NCBI GenBank assembly: GCA_002713205.1
Contig: PAVW01000018.1
Location: 15,184 to 47,183, forward strand
Direction of reading: 5' to 3'
Source: Nitrososphaerota archaeon
GTDB lineage: Archaea; Thermoproteota; Nitrososphaeria; Nitrososphaerales; UBA57
DNA length: 32,000 nt
The notes under the pieces are model-generated. The model was not told the DNA's origin and did not search any database. It saw nothing but the letters and a program-made list of their open reading frames with translations. The position numbers were made by a program, and so were the translations under genes. Numbering within the stretch: position 1 is the stretch's first letter; each line of letters opens with the position of its first letter. This document shows positions 3,491-15,902 of this stretch, piece after piece.

Positions 3491-4939
3491 ATGAAATATG
3501 AAGAGATTCAAAAATTATTTTTAGAACGTGGTTTTTTTTTCCCAAGTTCTGAAATATATCCGGATTCTCCTGCAGGATTTTGGGATTATGGTCCACTTGG
3601 TGTTTCTTTTCGTAATAAATTTATTGATTTGTGGAGAAAAGAACTAGTTCGAAGAGATGATATGTTGGAAATTGACGGAAGTCAAATTTTATCTAAAAAT
3701 GTATTTGTTGCTTCAGGCCATTTAGAAAATTTTTCTGATCCAATAGTTAATTGCGCATCTTGTAATTCAGTATTTCGTGCTGATCGTATGATATCTGATA
3801 TTCTTGGGAAAAATCTTTCAGAAAAATTACCTACTGATCTTTATGATAAGTATATTTCTGATAATAATATTAATTGTCCAAATTGTAATAATAAATTCTC
3901 ACTTGTTTCTAATTTTAATATGATGTATAAAGTTGGTATTGGTCCAAAACAAGAAGAATCTTTTTTACGACCTGAAACATGTCAAACTATTTTTGTGGAT
4001 TTTTTAAGATTATTTAAAACTATGCGAATTAAATTACCAATAGGTATAGCTCAATTTGGAAAAAGTTTTAGAAATGAAATATCTCCTCGTCAAAGTTTAT
4101 TACGTTTAAGAGAATTTTATCAAGCTGAAATCGAAGTTTTTTTTAATCCTGCAAAAGTTGATAATTATTCTAAATTTTCTTCTATTAGTGATTTTGAAAT
4201 TCCTATTTGTTTGGACGACGAAAAAATTGTTGTCAAATCATGTCATGATTTTGTTAAAGATGGTATAATTCCGAATCAATTTATTGCTTATTATTTAGCT
4301 ATTTTAAAACAATTTTTTGATAAAACCGGTATTGATACTTCTAAAATGCGATTTAGAAAGTTACTTGATGATGATAGGGCATTTTATTCATCTCATGCTT
4401 TTGATTTTGAAGTTTTAACTTCTCTTGGCTGGATAGAACTTGTTGCTTGTAATGACCGTTCTGATTTTGATTTAAGTCGACATTCAAATCTTAGCGGTAA
4501 AGATATTACTGTAATGGATGACGAATCAAAAATTTTACCTAATGTATTTGAAATTTCTATGGGTATAGAACGTAGTTTATATTCTATATTTGAACATTCA
4601 TTTAAGTATGAAGATCAAAGATCTTTATTAACTTTAAAATCTTATTTATCACCTTTTTTCATTGCTATTTTTCCATTAGTTAATAAAAACAATTTACCAG
4701 AATTAGCACATAATATCTATGAAGATCTTAAACTCGATTTTAATGTATTTTATGACGAATCAGGTTCTATTGGACGACGATATAGACGACAAGATGAAAT
4801 CGGAACTCCTTTTTGTATAACTGTTGATTTCGAAACTCTTGAATCTGAAACTGTAACATTAAGAAATCGAGATTCTATGGAGCAAATTCGAATACCTATA
4901 AAAGATCTCAAAGTTAAATTACAAGATATTAAATTATAA
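3491..4939 (+). CDS. glyS: glycine--tRNA ligase (archaeal/eukaryotic alpha2 type)
   Basis: RGFFFPSSEIY..GFWDYGPLG, class II motifs (FRNEISPRQSLLRLREF, GIERS) and the C-terminal anticodon-binding domain (DESGSIGRRYRRQDEIGTPF). ATG 3491 is preferred over the ORF-track TTG at 3473. Confidence 0.92.
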   Translation: MKYEEIQKLFLERGFFFPSSEIYPDSPAGFWDYGPLGVSFRNKFIDLWRKELVRRDDMLEIDGSQILSKNVFVASGHLENFSDPIVNCASCNSVFRADRMISDILGKNLSEKLPTDLYDKYISDNNINCPNCNNKFSLVSNFNMMYKVGIGPKQEESFLRPETCQTIFVDFLRLFKTMRIKLPIGIAQFGKSFRNEISPRQSLLRLREFYQAEIEVFFNPAKVDNYSKFSSISDFEIPICLDDEKIVVKSCHDFVKDGIIPNQFIAYYLAILKQFFDKTGIDTSKMRFRKLLDDDRAFYSSHAFDFEVLTSLGWIELVACNDRSDFDLSRHSNLSGKDITVMDDESKILPNVFEISMGIERSLYSIFEHSFKYEDQRSLLTLKSYLSPFFIAIFPLVNKNNLPELAHNIYEDLKLDFNVFYDESGSIGRRYRRQDEIGTPFCITVDFETLESETVTLRNRDSMEQIRIPIKDLKVKLQDIKL

Positions 4940-5729
4940 GATAAATCAGAAATACTGAACTACATGCACCTATGAAGATTGAAAATAAATTAACTATATT
5001 GTTGTCTATATATGCATACCCATTTTTTAAATTAGTGTATCTATAATGATGAATTTTTGATTCAGTTAATTGATTACAACTTCTACATATATAATTTGCT
5101 TGAATCGCAGCTCCAAAATAACTGTCTATAATTATTCCTATTATACCGCCAATTCCTGCTGCTAATAAATAATTATAATTTTGATTTATATTTAAAAAAT
5201 AAGCAAATAATATTATTGAACATATGCCTAATATTCCAGATATTGTTCCTAAAAATGTAATTGCCCCAGAACGACCCGATTCTACTTTTTTAAAAGTGGT
5301 TATTAATCTTGGTTTATGTTTACTTAATAATCCAATTTCTGTTGATATTGTATCTCCAGTTGCTATCGATATTGATGTAATAAATGGAATTAATAGAATC
5401 TCTAAATTTAGAAAATAATATGATAATGCAAATAATGACGTAATGATTCCATTGGCCAATACATTGGTCCATGCTCTTGTTCCTCCTTTACTTTGCGCTA
5501 ATCCTGTTTTTCTTTTTTCATGATATCTGAATTTTGTTAGTATGTAAGTCAAAAAAAAGAATACAAATAATAATATTAATCCATTTAATCCAATTCCAAA
5601 TAATACTGTTATTCCAATAAAACTTGCAATTAAACATCCATAAATATCTAAAATTTTTAATTTAATTACTAATATTGCAAGTACAATCAAAATTAAAATT
5701 GTTACTATATCTAAATATTCTATAATCAT
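4929..5729 (-). CDS. DUF92/TMEM19-family integral membrane protein
   Basis: Polytopic, with the motif KGGTRAWTNVLANG as I recall for DUF92. The C-terminal part has a CxxC. The 3' end overlaps the glyS 3' end by 11 nt. Confidence 0.55.
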   Translation of the reverse strand: MIIEYLDIVTILILIVLAILVIKLKILDIYGCLIASFIGITVLFGIGLNGLILLFVFFFLTYILTKFRYHEKRKTGLAQSKGGTRAWTNVLANGIITSLFALSYYFLNLEILLIPFITSISIATGDTISTEIGLLSKHKPRLITTFKKVESGRSGAITFLGTISGILGICSIILFAYFLNINQNYNYLLAAGIGGIIGIIIDSYFGAAIQANYICRSCNQLTESKIHHYRYTNLKNGYAYIDNNIVNLFSIFIGACSSVFLIYLII

Positions 5730-5766: not shown

Positions 5767-6453
5767 TTATAATTGTGAAAATATTGATTTTATCTTCTCT
5801 TCATTATTTTTTTTAGTTATTCCGAGAATGATATTTTCTCGTTTTGATAATTCTATTGCTAAATCGTCAACCTGATCTGGTCCATGTAGTATTACCATTC
5901 GAGGTTTTAATCGTGAAACTCTTATTGCAACTAATGGAGACCTTCCAAGTCCAACTCTGGTAAAAATTAGAACGCGTTCGGTTGTAGCTCCAAATATTTT
6001 ATAAAAATCAATTCCTGATAGAAGATAAATTGTGTTTATGCTATCTAAAATTGTATATCCATATAATTTTGTTTTTAATTGATCTTCACCATTCAATATT
6101 TTTGCATTTAATAGTGTTTTAAGTTTTAATGCTGTTAATGGTTTGTTAAATTCTCCTATTCCTATTATTGCTGAATGTTCTTCTTTTAATAATCGATTTA
6201 ATGTTTTATTATTTGTTTTATCAACTTCTACAAGTGCTTTAATATATTTTTTTATAAATATGACGCCCGGTGAACTTCTTCTTCCACTTTCATAATCACT
6301 TAGTACTGAAGGTGACATATTCATTTGTTTCGCTAAAATTATTTGTTTAATTTTTAATCTTTGTCTCCATATCTTTAACATTTGTCCTGGATTATTATTT
6401 ATTACAACATCTCCTGCAATTTTTGATATTATTTCAAGATCTGTTTGTGACAC
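5767..6453 (-). CDS. archaeal XRE-type HTH transcriptional regulator with C-terminal domain (COG1395-like)
   Basis: HTH segment LKIKQIILAKQMNMSPSVLSDYESGRR followed by an approximately 140-aa C-terminal domain. GTG start, since the only nearby upstream ATG is out of frame. It begins 45 nt downstream of herA. Confidence 0.55.
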   Translation of the reverse strand: MSQTDLEIISKIAGDVVINNNPGQMLKIWRQRLKIKQIILAKQMNMSPSVLSDYESGRRSSPGVIFIKKYIKALVEVDKTNNKTLNRLLKEEHSAIIGIGEFNKPLTALKLKTLLNAKILNGEDQLKTKLYGYTILDSINTIYLLSGIDFYKIFGATTERVLIFTRVGLGRSPLVAIRVSRLKPRMVILHGPDQVDDLAIELSKRENIILGITKKNNEEKIKSIFSQL

Positions 6454-6498: not shown

Positions 6499-7941
6499 TT
6501 AATTAAAAAATAATTTTGTTTCGCCCATTGCATGCCATTTACTTTCTGATATTTTTACAACTACTGGTAGATCATTGACTGTTTTTCCTAAAACTAAGCA
6601 ATTTTTTGATGGTAGTGTGCGCACTATTGATTTTACTGTATCTGCATCAACCATACTGGCTTTTGATACTAATTCAATATCAGTATCATTAGTAAAATTA
6701 AATAGAAAAATATTATCTGCTTGTCTATATATTCCTTGATCTATGGCATCGGGTTGATTTGTAATAAAAGTTGTAAATATTCCAAAATGTCTCATTCTTG
6801 TAATTATATCATCCCAATATGTATCTCGTAAGTATAGATGTGCTTCCTCTGCAAATAAAAATACCGGTTTAATGTCTTTTTTTTCTAATAAATTGACTAA
6901 TTTCGATAAAATTATTTCTACAGTAATTCTTCGTAATAGTGGTGATGCTTCAGATAACGAAATTATAATTATATTTCCATCGGGTTGTGTATTTAGTAAT
7001 TCTTCTAATTTAATCGAATTATTGTTATCTGTTAAAATACCTGTTGATTGTAAAGTATGAAATCGTGATATTAATGCATCTCTGACAAATTCATTGCCTT
7101 TCCAATTAAAAATATGATTTCTCAATTCATCTATATTTAATGAATTCTTCGTTTTTAATAATTTGAAAATACGTAAAAATTCTCGTAATGACGCTCCTGG
7201 TAATTGTAATGAATGAGTTAAAATATTACATAAGCAATTTAGTTCAAGATATTGCAAGTTGAATTTTAATGATTTACCGGGAACTAATCTTGTTATTTTT
7301 CTTGATAAATTACTAGTCGTTCCATTTTTATTTTTTGTTAATCCCTTGTATTCATCATTTAAATCAAAAATAATTATTGGGGCCCCTAATTCTGCTAAAT
7401 TAGCTGCTAATAGTTTAGATAAATGTGATTTTCCAGATTCTTTTTTCCCAGTTATTATATTTAATTTTCCATCTAAAGCTTCTGCATAAATTTTAAATAT
7501 TTCATTTGATGCACCTGTTCCTAATTCTATTTCTCTTTTTCCTTCTCTTTTTGCAATTTCAAATAATTCATTATATGATATTTTTTTAATTTTTGTATAA
7601 ACTCTTGATGGCAGTAAATTATTTGAATATGTTAACGTTGAATTTTTTATCATTCCTCTGATTTTACATTTTAATATTCTTGAATCTCTAATAAACATTG
7701 AAATATTTTCTATTTCTAATGATTCTCCTTGAATTCCTTCTAACGTAGATTCTATTACTTCGTCTCTTAAGATTTCTTCAGATAATCCTGGAATGTCAAT
7801 ATATGTTTCTTCATATATTTGCGCTAAAATATTTATTTTTTTTGATGTATCTTCTAACTGTAAATAATCTCCTTGATGTACTTGTTCACTTGGAGTTGAT
7901 AATATTAATACTTCATTACCTGATTTTCCTAATATTTTCAT
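6499..7941 (-). CDS. herA: HerA-type hexameric DNA translocase/helicase ATPase
   Basis: HAS-barrel-like N-terminus, Walker A GKKESGKS, IIIFDLNDEY, Walker B FLFAEEAHLY, FITNQP, and C-terminal LGKTVNDLPVVVKI. These parallel Sulfolobus HerA segments as I remember them (ATGSGKS, LIFDYHGEY, VIEEAHVF, IVSQRP, IGKIVKLPAVVKI). Confidence 0.85.
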   Translation of the reverse strand: MKILGKSGNEVLILSTPSEQVHQGDYLQLEDTSKKINILAQIYEETYIDIPGLSEEILRDEVIESTLEGIQGESLEIENISMFIRDSRILKCKIRGMIKNSTLTYSNNLLPSRVYTKIKKISYNELFEIAKREGKREIELGTGASNEIFKIYAEALDGKLNIITGKKESGKSHLSKLLAANLAELGAPIIIFDLNDEYKGLTKNKNGTTSNLSRKITRLVPGKSLKFNLQYLELNCLCNILTHSLQLPGASLREFLRIFKLLKTKNSLNIDELRNHIFNWKGNEFVRDALISRFHTLQSTGILTDNNNSIKLEELLNTQPDGNIIIISLSEASPLLRRITVEIILSKLVNLLEKKDIKPVFLFAEEAHLYLRDTYWDDIITRMRHFGIFTTFITNQPDAIDQGIYRQADNIFLFNFTNDTDIELVSKASMVDADTVKSIVRTLPSKNCLVLGKTVNDLPVVVKISESKWHAMGETKLFFN

Positions 7942-8198
7942 TTTTTAAAATCCATATTTTTGTATATTTCAAATTTTAATATTTTATTTTCAATTTGATT
8001 TAATTTTAATTCTGTTTCTTCAATTAATAGTTCGTTTTTTTCTCTCTTATAATTTTCAATTCCAATAATATCGAATTCATTTTCTTTTTGATAATATTCT
8101 GTAAGTTTTTCATATAGATATTTATATTCTATTATATTTTTGTTATGTTCTTTTTCTTTTATTTCTGTTAATAATATGTAATTTTTCATTTTTATCAA
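7938..8198 (-). CDS. 83-86 aa K/E/N-rich predicted coiled-coil protein, unknown function
   Basis: The ORF sits exactly between nurA and herA. Its stop overlaps the herA ATG (ATGA, 7938-7941). Start is either TTG 8198, overlapping the nurA stop, or ATG 8189. No motif recognised. Confidence 0.55.
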   Translation of the reverse strand: MIKMKNYILLTEIKEKEHNKNIIEYKYLYEKLTEYYQKENEFDIIGIENYKREKNELLIEETELKLNQIENKILKFEIYKNMDFKK

Positions 8199-9205
8199 TT
8201 TTTATTTTTTAATGTCCAATACCATCTAAGTATTGTATTTCGTGTATTTTCACTTGGTATTTCTTTTAATGAAAAATTTTTACATAAATAGCTTTTAAAG
8301 CATACATCTTCAAAATTTGTAAATATTGATATATTATGCGCTAATATTAATGATTCAGGATATCCTCTATAATATGAATCGTTATAACTTAAATAACCTA
8401 ATTCAAATTTTATATTTTTTGCTATACTTTCCGTTTTAAATACTAATCCATTATCTCTCATTTTTAATAACATTAATTCTTTTTTTATGATGTTTTTTTT
8501 ATTTGATTTTATTCTGAATATAAATGGTGATCCTTTTATTGATTTTAATTTAGGAAATGTAAAAATTATTGATTTATCTTTTGTTGTTTTTGATATTCCA
8601 ATTAAACTATTATTATTTTCATTTGCTTTTTTTAATATTATATCTCCATCTTGGGCTGAAGTAATAATATTTAATGTTCCATCAACTAATATTATGCAAT
8701 TATTTAACGAATTTGATAATTCTTTAATTAAGATTTTTTCTAATGTATTTCTAATATGTGATTCAATTATAGATGAATTATTATTAAATTGACTTAATTT
8801 AATAAATTGAAATTGTGTTAATGTCTTTTCATTATAATAATTTAAAAATGGTCCAAATTGTAAATATTTTATTGGTTTTCCATTTAATGATAAAACAGCA
8901 GCTACTCTCGAAGCATAAATTGTTCCACTATCTAAATCATATATTGGAATACATGATGAATCGATTGCAACAATTAATTTTTTTTCTTTTATTGTTTTAA
9001 CATGTTCTATATTGAAATTATGTGAATTGGTATGTTCTATTATTGGTTGACGATGAGCAGAGGAGCTGAAAATAACGTTTTTCCCCGTTATTTCCTTCAT
9101 ATTGAACTTTATTTTATTATTAATTTCTTTATTTATTTTATCAATGATTAAGGTTGGTTCGTTTTTTAAAAAATTTATTTGTATATTGTTTAATTGCGTG
9201 GCCAT
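8195..9205 (-). CDS. nurA: NurA-family 5'-3' nuclease
   Basis: Three NurA signature segments: LIVAIDSSC (cf. FVAIDGGS), CIILVDGTLN (cf. YILMDGSLS) and RGYPESLILAHNISIF (cf. KGYPFPLLKAHMDVRF). The start is taken at ATG 9205, with 9217 as an alternative. The ORF-track extension to 9295 overlaps the divergent gene. Confidence 0.8.
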   Translation of the reverse strand: MATQLNNIQINFLKNEPTLIIDKINKEINNKIKFNMKEITGKNVIFSSSAHRQPIIEHTNSHNFNIEHVKTIKEKKLIVAIDSSCIPIYDLDSGTIYASRVAAVLSLNGKPIKYLQFGPFLNYYNEKTLTQFQFIKLSQFNNNSSIIESHIRNTLEKILIKELSNSLNNCIILVDGTLNIITSAQDGDIILKKANENNNSLIGISKTTKDKSIIFTFPKLKSIKGSPFIFRIKSNKKNIIKKELMLLKMRDNGLVFKTESIAKNIKFELGYLSYNDSYYRGYPESLILAHNISIFTNFEDVCFKSYLCKNFSLKEIPSENTRNTILRWYWTLKNKN

Positions 9206-9260
9206 GTTGAACAACATGAATAAGAAACATTCAAATATAAATGTTGTGCAACATGCACAA
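9203..9260. promoter_or_regulatory. Bidirectional control region with a duplicated 16-bp palindrome (operator-like)
   Basis: CATGTTG-aa-CAACATG (9203-9218) and AATGTTG-tg-CAACATG (9240-9255) are 37 bp apart centre to centre. A TTGTGCA-aca-TGCACAA palindrome (9244-9260) overlaps the second site. An AAATATAAA TATA-like element lies at 9233-9241. Confidence 0.6.
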
Positions 9261-9279
9261 TTAATGGATTTGTTATGAT

Positions 9280-9726
9280 TTGGATTTAGAAACAAATAAA
9301 GTTACTATAAAATTAAAACGAGGAAGTTGGGAAGTTGAAATCACTTGCCCAGAGGATAAAGTAAAACAAATTGTCGAAAATGTATTAAGTGGCTTGGATA
9401 AGGACAAATCTATTAAACAGGAAATTCAAGATCTTCCAGCTGTTCATTCTATGACCAATGATGAAATTATGAAAGCCGACGTAGTAACAAAATCCAAAGA
9501 TCATGTTATTTGTAGGGATTTAATTCAATTATTATGGCAGGAAAATTGGTTTCAAACTGAAAAAAATCTTTCTAATGTTTATGAGGAATTGGCCAGACGT
9601 GGTTATCATTATGATAAAACTAGTATATCGCATTCATTAGCTGATTTAGTTAGAGAAACTACTTTAACACGTGTTGGTTCTATAAGAAATTATCGATATA
9701 TACAAAAAAGACCTCCATCACCATAA
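9280..9726 (+). CDS. two-domain protein, N-terminal beta-rich module + C-terminal winged-helix (paralog 1 of 3)
   Basis: 148 aa. TTG is the only canonical start after the in-frame TAA at 9262-9264. The N-terminus is VTIKLKRGSWEVEITCPEDKVKQIVENVL. The C-terminus LSNVYEELARRGYHYDKTSISHSLADLVRETTLTRVGSIRNYRYI has a wHTH pattern. Confidence 0.6.
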   Translation: MDLETNKVTIKLKRGSWEVEITCPEDKVKQIVENVLSGLDKDKSIKQEIQDLPAVHSMTNDEIMKADVVTKSKDHVICRDLIQLLWQENWFQTEKNLSNVYEELARRGYHYDKTSISHSLADLVRETTLTRVGSIRNYRYIQKRPPSP

Positions 9727-9758
9727 AAGTATATTAATTTATTTTAGAAATATATAGT

Positions 9759-10250
9759 ATGAAAGAATCTCCTATTAAAATAAAACTTCATATATCTAAT
9801 GCTGAAATTGAATTAGAATGTGCTTTAGAAGAAATGTCTGAAGTCCTCAAATTTATTCCTGAATTAATTGGTATTCTTTCTAATAATGTAAAAAGTATTC
9901 CAAAATCGTTAACACCTGTTTTAAACAAGTCTGATATTAGTGATGATCTTCCTGATATTTCTGTTAGTAGATCAGATTCTCTAACTGCCATTTTAATTAA
10001 ATTGTTTAGTAGTTCGTGGTCATCTAGTCCAAAAAAATTAAATGAAATTCGCGAAGCTCTTAACTCTTATGGACTAATATATCCGAAACAATCCGTTGCA
10101 GTAACTCTTTTACGAATGGCTCAGTCTGGTAAATTACGACGATTTAAAAGTAGTAGCGGTGAATATGTTTATACTCCATCAACTTCTCTTTTTTCAACTT
10201 CTAATTCATTAGTCTCTAATTCATTAAATATTTCATCTAAATCAGCATGA
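9759..10250 (+). CDS. two-domain protein, N-terminal beta-rich module + C-terminal winged-helix (paralog 2 of 3)
   Basis: 163 aa. IKIKLHISNAEIELECALEEMSEVLKFIPEL aligns to paralog 1. The C-terminus W..SPKKLNEIREALNSYGLIYPKQSVAVTLLRMAQSGKLRRFKSSSGEYVYT aligns to the paralog 1 wHTH. The tail is Ser-rich. Confidence 0.65.
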   Translation: MKESPIKIKLHISNAEIELECALEEMSEVLKFIPELIGILSNNVKSIPKSLTPVLNKSDISDDLPDISVSRSDSLTAILIKLFSSSWSSSPKKLNEIREALNSYGLIYPKQSVAVTLLRMAQSGKLRRFKSSSGEYVYTPSTSLFSTSNSLVSNSLNISSKSA

Positions 10251-10257
10251 TTATGGA

Positions 10258-10758
10258 ATGATAAAATTGACTGATATTATTGTTTCAATAACATTTGAAG
10301 ACACAAAAATTGATTTTAAAGGAGAACCTAATGATGTTCTAGTTTCAATAAATGAATTCTTTTTAAAACAAATTCCAAATCTTGATTTAGCTAAAAAAAT
10401 TTCTGTAAATTATTCATTGGAACAATTAATATCTATTTTTTCTGAATATATCAAATTAACTCCAGAAGGTCCTAGAATCTGGATAGAAAATAAGAAATTA
10501 AGTGATAGGGAGAAAATATGTTTGCAATTAATTGCTTTTCATATAGGTTATTTGGCTAAAAATTCAAATAATTCACAAATTAGTATGAATATTATTTCAA
10601 ATCTTACAGGTCTTAACTCTAAATCAATTAGTTCCAGATTAAGTGAATTACAAAAATTGGGTTATGTCAAAAAACATAATATTGATAATAAAATTTTATT
10701 TCAAATAACAACACAAGGTATTTATTGGTTTGAACAAATTATTATTAAAAAAGTATGA
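10258..10758 (+). CDS. two-domain protein, N-terminal beta-rich module + C-terminal winged-helix (paralog 3 of 3, more divergent)
   Basis: 166 aa. IIVSITFEDTKIDFKGEPNDVLVSINEFFLKQI, and a C-terminal MNIISNLTGLNSKSISSRLSELQKLGYVKKHNIDNKILFQIT (helix-turn-helix plus wing). It begins 7 nt after paralog 2. Confidence 0.65.
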   Translation: MIKLTDIIVSITFEDTKIDFKGEPNDVLVSINEFFLKQIPNLDLAKKISVNYSLEQLISIFSEYIKLTPEGPRIWIENKKLSDREKICLQLIAFHIGYLAKNSNNSQISMNIISNLTGLNSKSISSRLSELQKLGYVKKHNIDNKILFQITTQGIYWFEQIIIKKV

Positions 10759-10785
10759 TTATGTATTTTTAATGTGAGTTGTGTT

Positions 10786-11175
10786 ATGAAAAAATTAACT
10801 ATAGTTTTGAGTTTATTAACAATATCCCTTGGTCTTTTAGGCGGACAAGCAGCTAATAATATATTTGAAGAAGTTGAAATGTTAGAAGAACAAAATCTGA
10901 ATCCAGCTAATAATGAAAATAGAGCTCCTGCTTCACCAGAATATATTGGAGCCCTTTATGACGAAGGATCTTTTGTTGCATTTTTTAGCCGAGCTTTAAT
11001 ATTTCTTGGTGTATTTTTCACCCTTTATGGTTTTATCGATGACTTAAAAAAACTTAAACGAAAAGATATATCAAAAAATTCTGAGAATACAGTAAAACTT
11101 GAAGAAACATATGAAGAATTTAAACTAAGAAAGAAAAAATTTCGAGAAGCGCAGCGAAAACAAGTTTCTAATTAA
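10786..11175 (+). CDS. secreted/type-I membrane protein (signal peptide, one C-proximal TM helix, K/R/E-rich cytoplasmic tail)
   Basis: MKKLTIVLSLLTISLGLLGG signal-like N-terminus, an acidic ectodomain, the TM helix ALIFLGVFFTLYGFI, then KKLKRKD..KKKFREAQRK. ATG 10786 is preferred over the ORF-track GTG at 10774. It is the last gene of the wHTH operon. Confidence 0.6.
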   Translation: MKKLTIVLSLLTISLGLLGGQAANNIFEEVEMLEEQNLNPANNENRAPASPEYIGALYDEGSFVAFFSRALIFLGVFFTLYGFIDDLKKLKRKDISKNSENTVKLEETYEEFKLRKKKFREAQRKQVSN

Positions 11176-11179
11176 ATAT

Positions 11180-13006
11180 TTATTTCGAATCTGTAACAAT
11201 TATATTTTTTTGTTGTACTAATGCTTTTATTATATTCTTTCCTAAATCTGAAGATTTTGATACTCGAATTTTATTTTTTTTACCAACTGTAGCTGAAAAA
11301 ATATATTCATTGTTTATATATACATTTAGTTTTTTACTATGTAATTTTCTATTAAATAAAAAATCTAATGAATTTCCTGATTCATGAATAGTATGATTAA
11401 TTTTTTTTCCTAATGAATTATCAAACGGTAATACATCTATACTGATTCCTAATTGCGCTTCTATTTTGTTTATTTCTGATCCTCCTTTACCTATTATTCT
11501 TGGAATAAATGATTTATCTATTTTTACAATTGCATGTGATGCTGATGTGAATTTAATTTCTGCTTGTGTGTTATAATCATTAAAAATATTCTGTAATTCT
11601 TTTTTCACAAATTTTATTTTACTAGTTTCTTTTTCTTCTAATAACGCAACCGGTATGATAATATTTTCATCTCCATATGTATAAATCTCATATTCCAGTT
11701 TTTCATTTTCAAAATCTCGAATTTCTACAACTGGCCTTGTTAAATCTCTTTCAGTCATTCCAGTTGGAACTTTCATAACTAATTCTAATTGATAAATTTT
11801 TGAAATATCTCCATTATTTATGAATATTACAGTATCGATTATGTTACATATCATGCCTATTTCTATACGTCCGATGAATCTTTGGATAGAATTAACAGGA
11901 TTACTTGCATGAACAACACCTATCATTCCTACTCCTGAAAGGCGAAGATCTGAAAAAATCATAAAATCTTTTGATTTTCTAACTTCATCAAATACAGTAT
12001 AATCTGGTCTTACTAATAATAGTACTTCTGCTGTTTTTTCAAAATCACCTTCTAATGGCCCGTATTGTGAAATTTCTGAATCAACTTGTAAATCTTTTGG
12101 AGATTCTATTGTTTTTACAATTTTATTTTTTTTTGAATAAAATTCAGCTAAACTTGATGCAAATGTGCTTTTACCTGAACCAGGAGGTCCTGATACCAAA
12201 ATTCCTTCTGCTGCTGATTCAATTCTATTTTGTAATTTTGGTGAAATTGTATAGTCATCTAGTTTGAGTTTTTTTATTGGTTTTATTATAGTTACTTCTA
12301 TTTTATCTGAAAATGGAGGATTTGTAATAGCAATTCTAAATGAATCAAGTTGAATTACTTTTGCACCATTCTTCATTATTGGCCTATCAACTTTTTTTGC
12401 AATTCTACTAAATTCTTCAATTTCTTTAATAATTTTTTCTATTTCTTCTTTGGTAACTGAATTACCTATCGATTTCATTTTTACTTTACCTGGTTTTCCT
12501 ATTTTAATTCGCACAGGAATTCCTTCAGTTATATGAACACTTGTTGTATTCTTTTCAAAAAATTTTAAAAATTTTAATTCATTTCTATCGATTTTAGTTT
12601 CTATATATTTGACTTCTGCTCCTAATACTTCTGCAACAATTGCTTGTACATAATCTCCTGTATACAATAATGCTTTGTTTTTTATTGCTTCATCTCTAAT
12701 TATTCCATCAATTCTTCCACTTTTTGCTAATTTAATATCTTCTAATGATGGTTTTGAACCTAAATATTTGAATATAATTTTTTTCTGATCTGATAATTTT
12801 CTAAGTTTTTTTAATTCTTCTAAACCTAAAAATCCCACTTCTCTATGTTTTGATGCTTGTGATTGTAATTCATCTAATACGGCTATTGGAATTATAATTT
12901 CACAGTTTTTTAATTCTTTTTTATTTATATTATTTGACAGAATGCCATTAATAATTATACTTGTATCCGGCACAATTTTAATTTTTTTAGTTTTATTTTT
13001 TACCAA
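11180..13006 (-). CDS. PIN domain - PilT-like ATPase - KH domain protein (COG1855 family)
   Basis: N-terminal PIN (KIVPDTSIIINGIL...IIPIAVLDELQ), Walker A SGPPGSGKSTFA, VFDEVR, and a C-terminal KH motif RIIGKGGSEINKIE. TTG start, with in-frame stops immediately upstream. Confidence 0.85.
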   Translation of the reverse strand: MVKNKTKKIKIVPDTSIIINGILSNNINKKELKNCEIIIPIAVLDELQSQASKHREVGFLGLEELKKLRKLSDQKKIIFKYLGSKPSLEDIKLAKSGRIDGIIRDEAIKNKALLYTGDYVQAIVAEVLGAEVKYIETKIDRNELKFLKFFEKNTTSVHITEGIPVRIKIGKPGKVKMKSIGNSVTKEEIEKIIKEIEEFSRIAKKVDRPIMKNGAKVIQLDSFRIAITNPPFSDKIEVTIIKPIKKLKLDDYTISPKLQNRIESAAEGILVSGPPGSGKSTFASSLAEFYSKKNKIVKTIESPKDLQVDSEISQYGPLEGDFEKTAEVLLLVRPDYTVFDEVRKSKDFMIFSDLRLSGVGMIGVVHASNPVNSIQRFIGRIEIGMICNIIDTVIFINNGDISKIYQLELVMKVPTGMTERDLTRPVVEIRDFENEKLEYEIYTYGDENIIIPVALLEEKETSKIKFVKKELQNIFNDYNTQAEIKFTSASHAIVKIDKSFIPRIIGKGGSEINKIEAQLGISIDVLPFDNSLGKKINHTIHESGNSLDFLFNRKLHSKKLNVYINNEYIFSATVGKKNKIRVSKSSDLGKNIIKALVQQKNIIVTDSK

Positions 13007-13098: not shown

Positions 13099-14577
13099 TT
13101 GAATTCATTAACAAAATATGAAGATATATTAATATCTGTAATTAAAGAGGCTCAAAAACACAATGTTGAATTTGTTGAGGCTAGATTTCATTCTACTTGG
13201 AATTTAGTGGCAATATTGAATAATGGTAAATCTGAACCATCAATTTCTTCTGAAACTCAGGGTATTGGAATTCGTATTATTTATGACGGTGTGATGATTT
13301 TTGCTTCAATTAATTCTTATGATTCAATTCCACAACTTATTGAAAAATCAATTTCAACCGCAAAGTCTTCTAAGAAACTTTCAAAAAATCCTATTAAATT
13401 TTCTTCTGAAAAATCAATAAATAAAACATGGGCTGCAGAAGAAAAAGAAAATTTAAAAAATGTAAATATAGATGAAATGATTTCTGAACTTAATAATATT
13501 GATGAATATGTAAAATCATTTAGTTCTGATGTTTCTTTTCCAAAACGAACTCTTATTCTTTCGAATTCAATTGAAGAAAAGTTCTATATTAATAGTGAAG
13601 GCAGTCGTATATTAAGTCGAGTACCTAGAGTTGAATTTCATAGTTATTTAGCTGCTAAAACTAATGGTTCTTTATCAGCAATTTCTATTCCTGCAGGGTA
13701 TGCAGGACTTGGTGGAACTGGTGGTTGGGAAACTATCAAAACATTTAATTTTGATTCATACATTCCTGAACAATTAAAAAATTCTTCTAAATCTATTACA
13801 TCAAAATTAGTAAAATTTGATAATGATGTTGATGTAATTGTTGGCCCTGAGATTGCAGGAATAGTTGCACATGAATCATGTGGACATCCATTTGAAGCTG
13901 ATCGTATTCTGGGTCGAGAAGCAGCTCAAGCAGGTGAATCATACTTAGACTTCGATAGTGTTGAAAAAAAATTTAATTTTGGTACTATTGAAGAAATTGA
14001 TAAATCTGAAGCTTTTGTTAGTGACGATCCAACACTTTCTGGTTCTATGGGTTTTTATTTATTTGATGATGAAGGTGTCGAAGCACACAAACGCACTTTA
14101 CTTCAAGGTGGAATTGTCACTGATCTATTACATAATCGTGAAACATCATTTCAAAAAGATATTCAAAGTAATGCTTCATCACGAAGTGTCGACTATGACC
14201 GTGAACCTATAATCAGAATGTCTAATACATTTATTGAACCAGGGGATTATGATTTTGAAGAATTGGTCGCTGATATAAAATATGGAATTTATATTAAGAA
14301 TTTTATGGAATGGAATATTAATGATACACGAGAGCATCAGAAATATGTTGGTTTGGAAGCATATCTTATTAAAAATGGTATTAAGGATGTTAATGTAAAA
14401 TCTCCTGTTCTTGAACTAACTGCCAAAAAATTCTGGTCTAGTATAGATGGACGTTCTAAAACTTTGAAATTTTCTTCTGCTACATGTGGTAAAGGAGAAC
14501 CAATGCAAGGAGCTCCAGTTTGGACTGGTGGCCCTCACGTCAGGCTGCGAAATCTTCGGGTGGGAAGTCATTCATGA
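13099..14577 (+). CDS. tldD: TldD-family metalloprotease (peptidase U62)
   Basis: HExxxGH motif (AHESCGHPFEAD), FDDEG, and the C-terminal GxC..G..VWTGGP pattern. TTG start, with an in-frame TAA at 13090-13092. Confidence 0.88.
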   Translation: MNSLTKYEDILISVIKEAQKHNVEFVEARFHSTWNLVAILNNGKSEPSISSETQGIGIRIIYDGVMIFASINSYDSIPQLIEKSISTAKSSKKLSKNPIKFSSEKSINKTWAAEEKENLKNVNIDEMISELNNIDEYVKSFSSDVSFPKRTLILSNSIEEKFYINSEGSRILSRVPRVEFHSYLAAKTNGSLSAISIPAGYAGLGGTGGWETIKTFNFDSYIPEQLKNSSKSITSKLVKFDNDVDVIVGPEIAGIVAHESCGHPFEADRILGREAAQAGESYLDFDSVEKKFNFGTIEEIDKSEAFVSDDPTLSGSMGFYLFDDEGVEAHKRTLLQGGIVTDLLHNRETSFQKDIQSNASSRSVDYDREPIIRMSNTFIEPGDYDFEELVADIKYGIYIKNFMEWNINDTREHQKYVGLEAYLIKNGIKDVNVKSPVLELTAKKFWSSIDGRSKTLKFSSATCGKGEPMQGAPVWTGGPHVRLRNLRVGSHS

Positions 14578-15902
14578 CATTGGATTATCTTTTATCTCTT
14601 CTTGAAAATAAAATTTCATCTATTACTTATGACGATTTTTCATTTATTATTGTTAAAGATGTTGAAGATTTGATAAGATTTAGTAATAATGAAATTACCG
14701 TTTTTGCTACAACTGAAAATATTAGTATTGAAATATACATAGGTAAAGATAAAAAACGCACTATTGGCGAAACAACAAATCTTGACGAACAATCTATTTC
14801 AAATTTTATAAATTTATTGTCTAAACAATGTGCTGATTCTCCAATAAATAATGATTATACTAGCCTTCCTCCTGGTCCATTTAATTATGATCATAAAAAT
14901 ATGATTAATGATGAACTGTCAATTGATCATGAATCTATGATTGATCATGTCGAGGTTTCAATTAATTCTGCGTTGAAAGCTGGTGCTTCAAGAGTTTCTG
15001 GTTCTCTCACGAGTTCCAAGTCTGAAATATTATTAAAAACATCTAATGGTACCGAATTAACGGATAAATATAATACCAATTTATTAAATCTTCGAGCATT
15101 TAGCACAACTAATTCAAGTGGTCATGGTTTATCTTGTTCTTCATCTATACGAGATATTGATTCAGAAAATGCAGGTATAAAAGCAGGCGAATATGCAAAA
15201 TTATCTATTAATCCAAAAAATTGTGATATTGGTAAATATGATATATTGTTTACACCTACAGTTGCCGCGGATATATTTCAACATGTTGGATATTCGGCAT
15301 CTGCTTTTTCTGTAGATGCAGGAACATCATTTCTCACAAATAAAATAAATGAAAAAATTTCATCAGACAAACTTTCCATAACTGATGTTGGTAACCCAAT
15401 TAATGGTATATATGGACGTATTTTTGATAATGAAGGCATGCCTACAAAATCTACTACTATAATTAAAAATGGTTTTATGAAAAGTTATCTTCATAATATA
15501 ACCACATCAAATAAGTATAACGTTGAATCTACTGGAAATGCAGGAATAATTGATCCTAGTTGTTGGAATTTAGATGTTTCTTCTGGTGATATGACTTTTG
15601 ATGAACAATTATCATCTATTAAAAATGGATTATTGATTACTAATAATTGGTATACTAGATTTCAAAATCAAATTCTTGGATTATATTCAACCATTCCACG
15701 AGATGCATGTTTTGTAATTAAAAATGGGGAAATTAGTGATTCTATTCATAATATTCGTATCAGTGATAACTTGCCCAGACAATTATTAAATATTGAATCA
15801 TTGTCAAAACAACGTGAATGGATTAAATGGTGGGAAGTAGAAATTCCAACATTATCCCCTTCAGTAATAATTAATAATGTACCTATTACTCGTTCTATGT
15901 AA
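14574..15902 (+). CDS. pmbA: PmbA/TldE-family protein (peptidase U62, TldD partner)
   Basis: Paralogous U62 fold without HExxxGH (FDNEGMPT, NNWYTRF). ATG 14574 overlaps the tldD stop (ATGA). The ORF-track start at 14520 lies inside tldD. Confidence 0.85.
   Translation: MTLDYLLSLLENKISSITYDDFSFIIVKDVEDLIRFSNNEITVFATTENISIEIYIGKDKKRTIGETTNLDEQSISNFINLLSKQCADSPINNDYTSLPPGPFNYDHKNMINDELSIDHESMIDHVEVSINSALKAGASRVSGSLTSSKSEILLKTSNGTELTDKYNTNLLNLRAFSTTNSSGHGLSCSSSIRDIDSENAGIKAGEYAKLSINPKNCDIGKYDILFTPTVAADIFQHVGYSASAFSVDAGTSFLTNKINEKISSDKLSITDVGNPINGIYGRIFDNEGMPTKSTTIIKNGFMKSYLHNITTSNKYNVESTGNAGIIDPSCWNLDVSSGDMTFDEQLSSIKNGLLITNNWYTRFQNQILGLYSTIPRDACFVIKNGEISDSIHNIRISDNLPRQLLNIESLSKQREWIKWWEVEIPTLSPSVIINNVPITRSM

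What the first reader, a model, noticed from the sequence alone, without database searches (positions are those of the whole stretch)
9280..10758. Tandem triplet of paralogous two-domain winged-helix proteins of an unrecognised family
Seen: three consecutive ORFs of 148, 163 and 166 aa share one architecture.
- The N-termini have alternating-hydrophobic, beta-strand-like segments followed by a helix: VTIKLKRGSWEVEITCPEDKVKQIVENVL / IKIKLHISNAEIELECALEEMSEVLKFIPEL / IIVSITFEDTKIDFKGEPNDVLVSINEFFLKQI.
- A variable linker follows, Ser/Asp-rich in paralog 2.
- The C-termini have a helix-turn-helix plus wing: ..ELARRGYHYDKTSISHSLADLVRETTLTRVGSIRNYRYI / ..ALNSYGLIYPKQSVAVTLLRMAQSGKLRRFKSSSGEYVYT / ..NLTGLNSKSISSRLSELQKLGYVKKHNIDNKILFQIT.
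Paralogs 1 and 2 align along their full length by eye, and paralog 3 is more distant.
Inference: local triplication of a DNA-binding protein suggests a hetero-oligomeric assembly or a set of related specificities rather than a single repressor.
Basis: partly seen in the sequence, partly recalled or inferred. Interest (0 to 1): 0.65.

Follow-up and report, generated by a model that had tools for sequence, protein, structure and literature searches.

The report
Archaeal winged-helix trio guarding nurA-herA promoter
Three neighbouring genes encode related, previously undescribed DNA-binding proteins, kept together across ammonia-oxidising archaea next to the DNA-end-processing genes nurA-herA, whose shared promoter carries a conserved pair of palindromic sites, so they probably control or guide that repair machine.

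Summary
ORFs 9280-9726, 9759-10250 and 10258-10758 (+) are real genes with the same build: an acidic N-terminal beta-hairpin plus helix, a variable linker, and a basic C-terminal winged helix (wH).

- **Relatedness.** P1 and P2 are clear paralogs (hhalign 98%, E 1e-13). P3 is a remote homolog, seen only with enlarged profiles (93%, E 2e-7).
- **Age.** "Local triplication" is wrong. The set is ancient and spread across Nitrososphaerota. The usual order is P2>P3> <P1 | nurA> herA>, and the tandem order in this window is derived.
- **Family.** No Pfam, PDB or PADLOC family claims P1 or P2. The nearest wH is BlaI/MecI, at marginal scores.
- **New finding.** The 74-bp P1/nurA divergent region holds two ATGTTG-NN-CAACAT palindromes flanking a TATA box. 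This pair is conserved at the P1 promoter across the phylum (281-fold enrichment).
- **Distant relatives.** One locus has three P3-like genes and one P2-like gene in the same operon as nurA-herA. An element-borne protein fuses a HerA-like ATPase to a P1-type wH. Tandem paralog pairs and a two-wH fusion also occur.

Best reading: a multi-paralog DNA-binding module dedicated to NurA-HerA, with P1 as an autoregulated repressor. Binding and hetero-oligomerisation are untested.

The parts
9280..9726 (+). P1: 148-aa protein with a beta-hairpin+helix module, a disordered linker and a winged helix. The wH is very conserved (RRGYHYD..SHSL.DLVRE..RNYRY.QKRPP).
   Evidence: ORF; 300 homologs; alignment A1 with 20 invariant positions; AF2; generic wH matches in Foldseek
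9759..10250 (+). P2: 163-aa full-length paralog of P1 with a Ser/Asp-rich variable linker and a Ser/Asn-rich tail. The conserved wH motif is YPKQSVAV.LLR.AQSGKLRRFK.
10258..10758 (+). P3: 166-aa remote homolog with the same hairpin+helix start, an inserted helix/mini-hairpin, a MarR/ArsR/AspA-like wH and a C-terminal helix. It starts 7 nt after the P2 stop, so it is probably co-transcribed with P2.
9204..9217 (.). PalA: palindrome ATGTTGAACAACAT. It overlaps the nurA start codon (ATG = 9205..9203 on the minus strand).
9233..9241 (.). TATA-like element AAATATAAA between the two palindromes. It is conserved as TATAAA / TAATAAA / TAATAAG directly abutting PalB in the other lineages. Inferred to be the core of a bidirectional P1/nurA promoter.
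   Evidence: sequence; conserved layout. The promoter role is an inference.
9241..9254 (.). PalB: palindrome ATGTTGTGCAACAT, immediately downstream of the TATA element and 26 nt upstream of the P1 start.
9254..9261 (.). Third, partial related site, TGCACAAT. In other lineages it reads TGCGCAATATG, TGCGCTTGCGCAAYA or TGTTCAACA.
   Evidence: weaker than PalA and PalB
9730..9737 (+). TATA-like TATATTAA 22-29 nt before the P2 ATG, taken as a separate promoter for P2-P3. No TGTTG..CAACA palindrome lies here.
   Evidence: The promoter role is an inference.
8195..9205 (-). nurA, corrected start (MATQLNN...), divergent from P1. The listed ORF extending to 9295 is over-extended.
   Evidence: Pfam NurA 27.6 bits vs cut-off 21; start; jackhmmer
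6499..7941 (-). herA-type ATPase downstream of nurA.
   Evidence: Pfam DUF87 44.5 bits vs cut-off 23.2; PADLOC HerA and mad8 models

Best explanation
The three genes encode an ancient set of paralogs from an undescribed archaeal superfamily, spread across Nitrososphaerota. Each protein has an acidic beta-beta-alpha module, a flexible linker and a basic, BlaI-like winged helix. Together they form a DNA-binding module dedicated to the neighbouring NurA-HerA nuclease/helicase.

Proposed mechanism:
- The small N-terminal modules pair or stack, homo- and probably heterotypically, to bring two or more wH domains together.
- P1 is transcribed from a compact bidirectional promoter shared with nurA-herA. 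It binds the conserved T[G/C]TTG-N2-CAA[C/G]A palindromes.
- PalB abuts the TATA box and PalA covers the nurA start region. Binding there would repress both P1 itself and nurA-herA.
- P2 and P3 are made from their own promoter as an operon. They would act as partner subunits that either modulate P1 through mixed oligomers or help target NurA-HerA to DNA.

Shown: gene reality, architecture, paralogy, phylum-wide synteny, the conserved operator pair and its position, and operon fusion with nurA-herA in a distant lineage.

Inferred: which protein binds the palindromes, that binding represses, oligomerisation through the N-module, and any physical contact with NurA-HerA.
For: 1. wH fold at high confidence, with basic wH and acidic N-modules.
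2. The nearest known wH is that of the BlaI/MecI palindrome-binding repressors: PDB 1p6r at E 4.4e-4 with profile A5; PF03965 marginal in 12 of 46 and 6 of 52 members; Foldseek rank 2.
3. Operator. There are two exact palindromes in the window. Of 100 strict matches in 1.23 Mb of related loci, 76 fall in the 62 P1-upstream windows (13.7 kb), a 281-fold enrichment. 49 of 62 loci have at least one site and 27 have at least two, mostly 37-38 bp apart.
4. The layout PalA - 22-26 nt - TATA - PalB is conserved in 48 distinct promoter sequences, from Nitrosocaldus and Conexivisphaerales to Nitrosopumilales.
5. The pair stays with P1 in marine loci that lack nurA-herA. In L066, where P1 and nurA lie 2.4 kb apart, nurA has a site at one mismatch and I read a weaker related palindrome in the P1 upstream sequence.
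6. Only 10 other matches exist in the loci, 9 of them inside long ORFs, so the element is local.
7. Synteny: 53 of 83 sources have P1+P2+P3+NurA+HerA together.
8. Locus L087 (53% GC, taxon unknown) has three P3-like genes, one P2-like gene, nurA and herA in one tightly packed operon.
9. P0400 fuses a HerA/FtsK-like ATPase and a coiled coil to a P1-type wH.
10. Multiplicity recurs: two tandem paralogs in L088, and two wH domains in one chain in P0369.
11. The P2-P3 gap has a median of 27 nt, and 11 pairs overlap by 4 nt.
Against: - No binding, oligomerisation or expression data exist, and no heteromer model could be run.
- The operator could be bound by another factor. The Xre-type HTH_3 gene sits downstream of herA in most lineages and stays in the leftward unit in marine loci without nurA-herA.
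- Sixteen loci hold P2(-P3) with no P1, NurA or HerA within the flank. P2-P3 therefore need not depend on NurA-HerA.
- Conserved synteny within one phylum can be inherited rather than functional. The extra-phylum support rests mainly on one locus (L087) of unknown taxon.
- Family members also occur in element- or virus-like contexts without NurA-HerA.
- P3 homology relies on an enlarged-profile comparison in which part of the score may be generic wH similarity.
Confidence: 0.45

Rival explanations
1. Three independent, ordinary homodimeric wH transcription factors with separate regulons. Their clustering, and the neighbourhood with nurA-herA, is inherited gene order in a phylum with conserved synteny. 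P1 simply autoregulates.
For: - P2-P3 have their own promoter with no TGTTG..CAACA site.
- Each family has a different, strongly conserved recognition helix.
- Synteny extends to unrelated genes: gatD-gatE upstream, HTH_3-DUF92 downstream.
- Some loci hold P2 alone or P2-P3 alone.
Against: - The distant locus L087 packs four paralogs into the nurA-herA operon with overlapping or abutting genes.
- Sets of 2-4 paralogs and a two-wH fusion recur outside the phylum.
- The shared small N-module is unlikely to be an independent fold.
- The wH surfaces are unusually invariant for private regulators.
Confidence: 0.22
2. P1-P3 are structural or targeting subunits of a distinct multi-subunit NurA-HerA machine. 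They would work as DNA-end or DNA-lesion adaptors or loaders rather than gene regulators. The conserved palindromes would be bound by another regulator, for example the Xre-type HTH_3 protein encoded downstream of herA, which co-regulates P1 with nurA-herA.
For: - The L087 operon.
- The HerA-like ATPase + P1-type wH fusion P0400.
- The HTH_3 gene belongs to the operator-controlled leftward unit in most lineages, including those that lost nurA-herA.
- The window HerA and NurA are divergent from curated HerA/NurA models.
Against: - The operator pair persists where no HTH_3 gene is within range: Nitrosocaldus L001 and L016-L019, L022, L036, L044.
- P1 keeps the operator, and P1-P3 persist, in marine loci without nurA-herA at the locus.
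- Sequence-specific BlaI-like wH domains sitting next to their own palindromes usually autoregulate (general knowledge).
Confidence: 0.22
3. Nucleoid-associated or segregation-type wH proteins, like AspA, that spread on DNA from the palindromes.
For: The best compact structural match of the P3 wH is AspA of pNOB8 (4rs8, TM 0.78 on target, 84 columns). AspA also appears at E 0.012-0.02 in the profile search. Several adjacent related sites are present.
Against: - All matches are above E 1e-3 and are shared with MarR/ArsR regulators.
- No ParA/ParB-type partner is in the window or the loci.
- The sites are confined to one promoter.
Confidence: 0.05

Closest known systems
BlaI / MecI / CopY penicillinase-repressor family (Pfam PF03965)
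   Same: These are the nearest detectable wH domains: 1p6r at E 4.4e-4 with profile A5, Foldseek rank 2 for P1, and marginal PF03965 hits in 18 relatives. They share a two-part build of a wH plus a separate dimerisation part joined by a linker. They act on palindromic operators that overlap their own promoter and that of a divergent gene (family knowledge).
   Different: The domain order is reversed: here the oligomerisation module is N-terminal and is a beta-hairpin+helix, not a helical domain. The window proteins do not hit PF03965 at all. No BlaR1/MecR1-type sensor protease is nearby. The operator sequence differs from the TACA/TGTA boxes.
MarR / ArsR / PadR-type wHTH regulators, including AspA of pNOB8
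   Same: The P3 C-terminal half (wH plus a terminal helix) superposes on these: MftR and MarR at E 1.5e-3 to 6e-3, AspA at TM 0.78. P3 also has borderline Pfam HTH_24 (22.3 vs 21.9 bits) and weak MarR_2 hits.
   Different: P3 has no MarR-type N-terminal dimerisation helix. It carries the beta-hairpin+helix module and an inserted mini-domain instead. MarR_2 scores 14.1 bits against a cut-off of 27. P3 is conserved as part of a three-gene set rather than as a lone regulator.
LexA-type SOS logic, and archaeal DNA-damage regulators (TFB3, Orc1-2 in Sulfolobales)
   Same: Works-like resemblance only. A palindrome-binding repressor would sit on its own promoter and on DNA-repair genes, and a flexible linker between the oligomerisation and DNA-binding parts could be a point of control.
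   Different: There is no homology to LexA, TFB3 or Orc1-2. No cleavage or induction data exist. The element appears local to one promoter, not a regulon, within the 1.2 Mb examined.
Canonical archaeal herA-mre11-rad50-nurA end-resection operon
   Same: The neighbouring genes carry the NurA and HerA (DUF87) domains above Pfam cut-offs and are adjacent and co-directional.
   Different: No mre11 or rad50 is in the window or in the flanks examined. Scores against curated HerA models are far below cut-off. The constant companions are the wH proteins, which I have not seen described for the canonical system (own knowledge; the searches found no mention).

Membership tests
BlaI/MecI/CopY (PF03965 Penicillinase_R) | wH domain matches PF03965 at or above the gathering score | tested here: not met
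   P1 and P2 have no PF03965 hit at E<=1. Hits at E<=0.01 occur in 6 of 52 and 12 of 46 family members, best E 2.4e-6.
BlaI/MecI/CopY (PF03965 Penicillinase_R) | N-terminal wH followed by a C-terminal helical dimerisation domain | tested here: not met
   The AF2 model of P1 has the order reversed: beta-hairpin+helix at 7-47, linker, wH at 78-142.
BlaI/MecI/CopY (PF03965 Penicillinase_R) | Cognate membrane sensor-protease (BlaR1/MecR1, peptidase M56) encoded alongside | tested here: not met
   No such domain was found among the window ORFs scanned or among the gene families I screened for in related loci.
BlaI/MecI/CopY (PF03965 Penicillinase_R) | Dimer binds a palindromic operator overlapping its own promoter | tested here: inconclusive
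   A conserved palindrome pair lies at the P1 promoter. Binding by P1 is not testable with these tools.
MarR family (for P3) | Pfam MarR / MarR_2 above the gathering score, with N- and C-terminal helices forming the dimer interface around the wH | tested here: not met
   MarR_2 scores 14.1 bits vs 27. The AF2 model shows a beta-hairpin N-module instead of an N-terminal helix. Foldseek alignments to MarR proteins have rmsd 8-15 A outside the wH.
Generic winged helix-turn-helix DNA-binding fold | H1-(b1)-H2-H3-b2-b3 topology with a basic surface | tested here: met
   AF2 gives P1 78-142 at pLDDT >94 and P3 83-150 at pLDDT mostly >90. Foldseek gives probability 1.0 to many wH structures. The wH pI is 9.3-10.0. 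The P2 fold is inferred from its homology to P1.
   P1/P2: 98%, E 1.1e-13. P1/P2 superfamily vs P3 family: 93.4%, E 2.4e-7, 128 columns, but only with enlarged profiles. With thaumarchaeal-only profiles just the hairpin aligns, E 0.003-0.012.
Canonical HerA-NurA-Mre11-Rad50 repair operon (context) | mre11 and rad50 in the same gene cluster | tested here: not met
   Neither was found in the 32-kb window. The related loci were screened with profiles for other gene families only, so absence there is not shown.
Known anti-phage defence systems (PADLOC) | Component proteins match PADLOC models of one system | tested here: not met
   P1, P2 and NurA have no hits. HerA hits only generic HerA/mad8 ATPase models. 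P3 hits only wH parts of CARF3 models.

The most novel reading that the evidence does not exclude
P1-P3 are not mere regulators. They would be integral subunits of a previously unrecognised multi-subunit DNA-processing machine. In this reading a hetero-oligomer of beta-beta-alpha/winged-helix paralogs recognises DNA (ends, lesions or specific sites) and loads or gates a divergent NurA-HerA nuclease-translocase. Mobile-element versions would have the wH fused directly to the HerA-like ATPase. P1 would double as the damage-responsive switch of the system, making this a thaumarchaeal counterpart of an SOS circuit.
Probability: 0.2. Interest if true: 0.75.

Novelty: new variant of a known kind. 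Interest (0 to 1): 0.55.

Why it matters
Ammonia-oxidising archaea are globally abundant, yet almost nothing is known about their gene regulation or about how they control DNA repair.

This locus offers a concrete and testable circuit:
- a defined 14-bp palindrome pair;
- a defined candidate binder (P1);
- two conserved partner proteins (P2, P3);
- a defined target, the nurA-herA promoter.

It also delineates a sizeable uncharacterised archaeal protein superfamily, with 1412 cluster representatives at E<=1e-3. That superfamily has a new small oligomerisation module and recurs in sets of 2-4 paralogs, in one case inside a nurA-herA operon and in another fused to a HerA-like ATPase.

If the proteins prove to be subunits or loaders of NurA-HerA, the accepted two-protein picture of that machine would need revising.

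Tried and rejected
**Sequence and structure searches**
- Pfam, NCBIfam, PADLOC and PHROGs scans of P1 and P2 found nothing above a curated cut-off.
- PDB profile searches with A1 and A2 found nothing significant. The N-module matched only de novo designs, Alba-1 and Pcc1, at E 0.07-3, which I treat as noise.
- Foldseek against the PDB and BFVD with full models gave only generic wH matches, all above E 1e-3. No whole-protein analogue and no match for the N-module was found.
- I considered ESCRT-II (tandem wH), TFIIF/Dcc1-type triple-barrel + wH, RPA32/Stn1 wH, ScpB/MukE kleisin partners and PCI domains as architectural analogues. None appeared in any search, and the 40-residue N-module is far too small for a triple barrel. 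I dropped these without a formal test.

**Other searches**
- An IMG/VR scan for close relatives found none.
- Literature searches for the proteins, the operator sequence, or wH partners of HerA-NurA found nothing relevant. PMC5797428 only lists a HerA-NurA pair in Nitrosocaldus.
- The search for the palindrome upstream of P2 found none. Elsewhere in the 1.2 Mb of loci there were 10 matches, 9 of them inside long ORFs.

**Side checks**
- The 86-aa ORF between nurA and herA is not similar to the 85-aa ORF that replaces nurA in marine loci.
- The taxon of the key distant locus L087 could not be established.
- A regulon scan of whole genomes or metagenomes was not attempted, because a 14-16-mer would be swamped by chance hits.
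Full report
**1. The observation**

The window is AT-rich (about 27% GC). By its gene content and its homologs it is a chromosome segment of a marine member of Nitrososphaerota (Thaumarchaeota).

They are real genes. P1 has 300 relatives at E<=0.01, P2 has 197 and P3 has 67. All come from thaumarchaeal genomes or metagenomes, and nearly all are labelled hypothetical.

**2. Are they one family?**

- P1 and P2 align over their full length: BLASTP E 3e-4 at 21% identity.
- Family profiles built from sequences under 70% identical (A1, A2) match at 98% probability, E 1.1e-13, over 128 columns.
- P3 is not detectably similar by BLASTP.
- With thaumarchaeal-only profiles, only the N-terminal hairpin aligns, in register, at E 0.003-0.012.
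- I then enlarged the P1/P2 profile with 111 distant full-length relatives from the exhaustive search, and added three P3-like proteins from locus L087 to the P3 profile. The comparison became colinear over 128 columns covering both domains: 93.4% probability, E 2.4e-7.

I therefore accept P3 as a remote homolog. One caveat applies: part of that score may be generic wH similarity.

**3. Structure**

AlphaFold2 on the family alignments gave the following.

- P1 (mean pLDDT 81): beta-hairpin 7-24, helix 25-47, a disordered stretch at 46-71, then a textbook winged helix at 78-142 with pLDDT above 94.
- P3 (mean pLDDT 85): the same hairpin (7-22) and helix (24-38), an inserted helix and mini-hairpin (54-74), a wH at 83-150, and a C-terminal helix.

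In all three proteins the N-modules are acidic (pI 4.4-5.2) and the wH domains basic (pI 9.3-10.0).

Foldseek found only generic wH matches, none below E 1e-3. P1 matched Hop2, BlaI, Fur and PadR. P3 matched MarR, ArsR and AspA. The N-module matched nothing known.

Pfam does not cover P1 or P2. P3 has only a borderline HTH_24 hit. The nearest named family for the P1/P2-type wH is BlaI/MecI, at marginal scores: PF03965 hits at E<=0.01 in 18 relatives (best 2.4e-6), and PDB 1p6r at E 4.4e-4 with a diverse profile.

**4. Not a local triplication**

A scan of one genome per GTDB species found P2 relatives in 143 genomes. The 80 returned are all Nitrososphaerota by record title, or are unnamed archaeal MAGs. 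They include Nitrosopumilales, Nitrososphaerales, Nitrosocaldus, Conexivisphaerales, Gagatemarchaeum, Nitrosomirales and Methylarchaceae.

I searched six-frame ORFs of these loci with the family HMMs. Of 83 non-redundant sources, 53 hold P1, P2, P3, NurA and HerA together. The dominant order is P2> P3> <P1 | nurA> herA> (HTH_3> DUF92>), seen in 58 sources. The tandem P1>P2>P3 order of the window occurs in only 8, all marine relatives.

P1 is always divergent from nurA when both are present, and this holds in the window too. P2 and P3 behave as an operon: the median gap is 27 nt and 11 pairs overlap by 4 nt. P2 has its own TATA about 25-30 nt before its start codon, even in the window (TATATTAA, 9730-9737).

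**5. A conserved operator**

The true nurA start is ATG 9205..9203 on the minus strand. The P1/nurA divergent region is therefore only 74 bp long.

It contains two exact copies of ATGTTG-NN-CAACAT, at 9204-9217 (PalA, overlapping the nurA start codon) and at 9241-9254 (PalB). A TATA-like AAATATAAA at 9233-9241 abuts PalB. Chance expectation is 0.11 copies in the window, and 0 of 100 shuffles reached 2.

Across the related loci the degenerate form T[GC]TTG-N2-CAA[CG]A occurs 100 times in 1.23 Mb. Of these, 76 lie in the 62 P1-upstream windows (13.7 kb in total), a 281-fold enrichment. 49 of 62 loci have at least one site and 27 have at least two, mostly 37-38 bp apart.

Allowing two mismatches, 48 distinct promoter sequences show the same layout. 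These span Nitrosocaldus, Conexivisphaerales, Nitrososphaerales and Nitrosopumilales. The layout is: nurA start, PalA, 22-26 nt, TATA, PalB abutting the TATA, then a third related site before the P1 start.

The pair stays with P1 in marine loci that lack nurA-herA at the locus. In L066, where P1 and nurA are 2.4 kb apart, the nurA side has a site at one mismatch. In the P1 upstream sequence printed I read a weaker related palindrome (ACTTGCGCAAGA).

Only 10 other strict matches occur in the loci, 9 of them inside long ORFs. None lies upstream of P2. This is a phylogenetic footprint of a dedicated operator on a compact bidirectional promoter.

The promoter roles are inferred from general knowledge of archaeal promoters: a TATA about 25 nt upstream of the transcription start, with orientation set by BRE/TFB. 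On that basis, a protein on PalB would block polymerase recruitment for P1 and the BRE side for nurA. A protein on PalA would cover the nurA start region.

**6. Relatives outside the phylum-wide set**

An exhaustive profile search with merged P1+P2 (A4) found 1412 cluster representatives at E<=1e-3 and 233 at E<=1e-10. The contexts I could retrieve are informative.

- **L087** (53% GC, taxon unknown). A single tightly packed operon encodes three P3-like proteins (156, 169 and 171 aa), one P2-like protein (150 aa), a NurA (E 7.6e-63 after iteration) and a HerA (E 1e-119 to the window HerA). A different palindrome sits just upstream of its TATA.
- **P0400**. This protein fuses a HerA/FtsK-like ATPase and a coiled coil to a P1-type wH. 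It lies in a block of small unannotated ORFs.
- **L088**. Two tandem paralogs sit beside an integrase. A near-identical copy of that integrase is annotated as coming from a Thermoplasmata archaeon.
- **P0369**. One N-module and two wH domains are carried in a single chain.
- **L091**. A P2-like wH lies in a virus-like block of nucleotide-metabolism genes.

So two features recur beyond inherited thaumarchaeal synteny: sets of several paralogs, and a link to HerA-type ATPases.

**7. Mechanism**

The best-supported reading is a DNA-binding module dedicated to NurA-HerA.

- P1 most likely dimerises through the beta-beta-alpha module.
- It would bind PalA and PalB, and perhaps the third site, and repress itself and nurA-herA.
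- P2-P3 are separately and probably constitutively expressed. They would be partner subunits that form mixed oligomers with P1 or help target NurA-HerA.

I put this at about 0.45. The rivals are:

- three independent regulators whose clustering is inherited (0.22);
- structural or loader subunits of NurA-HerA, with the operator bound by another factor such as the Xre-type HTH_3 protein downstream of herA (0.22);
- an AspA-like nucleoid or segregation role (0.05).

The HTH_3 rival is weakened because the operator pair persists in lineages with no HTH_3 gene in range. It is not excluded.

**8. Comparison with known systems**

The module works most like a BlaI/MecI- or LexA-style autoregulated repressor on a divergent promoter. 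It fails membership of BlaI/MecI on score, on domain order and on the missing sensor protease. P3 fails MarR membership on score and architecture. No PADLOC system matches. The neighbouring NurA and HerA carry their Pfam domains but lack mre11-rad50 nearby and score far below curated HerA models.

**9. Novelty and limits**

I found no description of these proteins, of the operator, or of wH partners of HerA-NurA in the searchable literature. That library is incomplete.

I rate this a new variant of a known kind. The proteins are winged-helix DNA binders, but with a new oligomerisation module, a multi-paralog organisation and a specific NurA-HerA association.

Nothing here demonstrates binding, repression, oligomerisation or contact with NurA-HerA.

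Noticed in passing
window 8195-9295 (-): The mechanically listed nurA ORF (TTG at 9295) is over-extended and appears to overlap P1. The conserved start is ATG 9205..9203 (MATQLNN...), which leaves a 74-bp divergent intergenic region.
   Followed up: yes
window 11180-13006 (-): A PIN + PilT-like ATPase + KH protein (NCBIfam PRK13764, 715 bits; related to the Holliday-junction migration ATPase PINA but below that model's cut-off) lies convergent to the triplet. The trio is therefore flanked by recombination/repair ATPases on both sides in this lineage and in marine relatives.
   Followed up: partly
window 7938-8198 (-); L005 9220-9474 (-): An 86-aa coiled-coil-like ORF sits between nurA and herA and has no relative in the other loci. 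Marine loci that lack nurA-herA carry an unrelated 85-aa coiled-coil ORF that starts exactly at PalA with the same 'MAT' as nurA, followed by the HTH_3 and DUF92 genes.
   Followed up: partly
window 5767-6453 (-) and 4929-5729 (-): A 228-aa Xre-type HTH_3 protein and a DUF92 membrane protein follow herA in most thaumarchaeal lineages (nurA-herA-HTH_3-DUF92). The HTH_3 protein is an alternative candidate for binding the palindromes.
   Followed up: partly
window 10774-11175 (+): A 133-aa ORF that looks like a membrane protein by eye starts 15 nt after the P3 stop. It has no counterpart in the related loci, and its function is unknown.
   Followed up: no
L025 about 11430-11520: A 9-bp tandem repeat (ATGAACAAT)n, which resembles the operator half-site, has expanded between PalB and the P1 start in one Nitrososphaerales genome.
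   Followed up: no
L087 5551-5576: The distant wH-nurA-herA operon has its own, different inverted repeat (ACGTTAGATTCAC / GTCATTCTAACGT) just upstream of a TATA-like AAAGCTTTTAAG. This suggests the same regulatory logic with another specificity.
   Followed up: partly
L085 8001-9500: A 499-aa protein joins a HerA/FtsK-like ATPase (Walker A GGPGSGKS), a long coiled coil and a P1-type winged helix. It lies in a run of small unannotated ORFs that looks like a mobile element or provirus.
   Followed up: partly
window 13099-15902 (+): Two adjacent TldD/PmbA-type metalloprotease genes follow the PINA-like gene. This pairing is conserved in the marine relatives. No link to the trio was examined.
   Followed up: no
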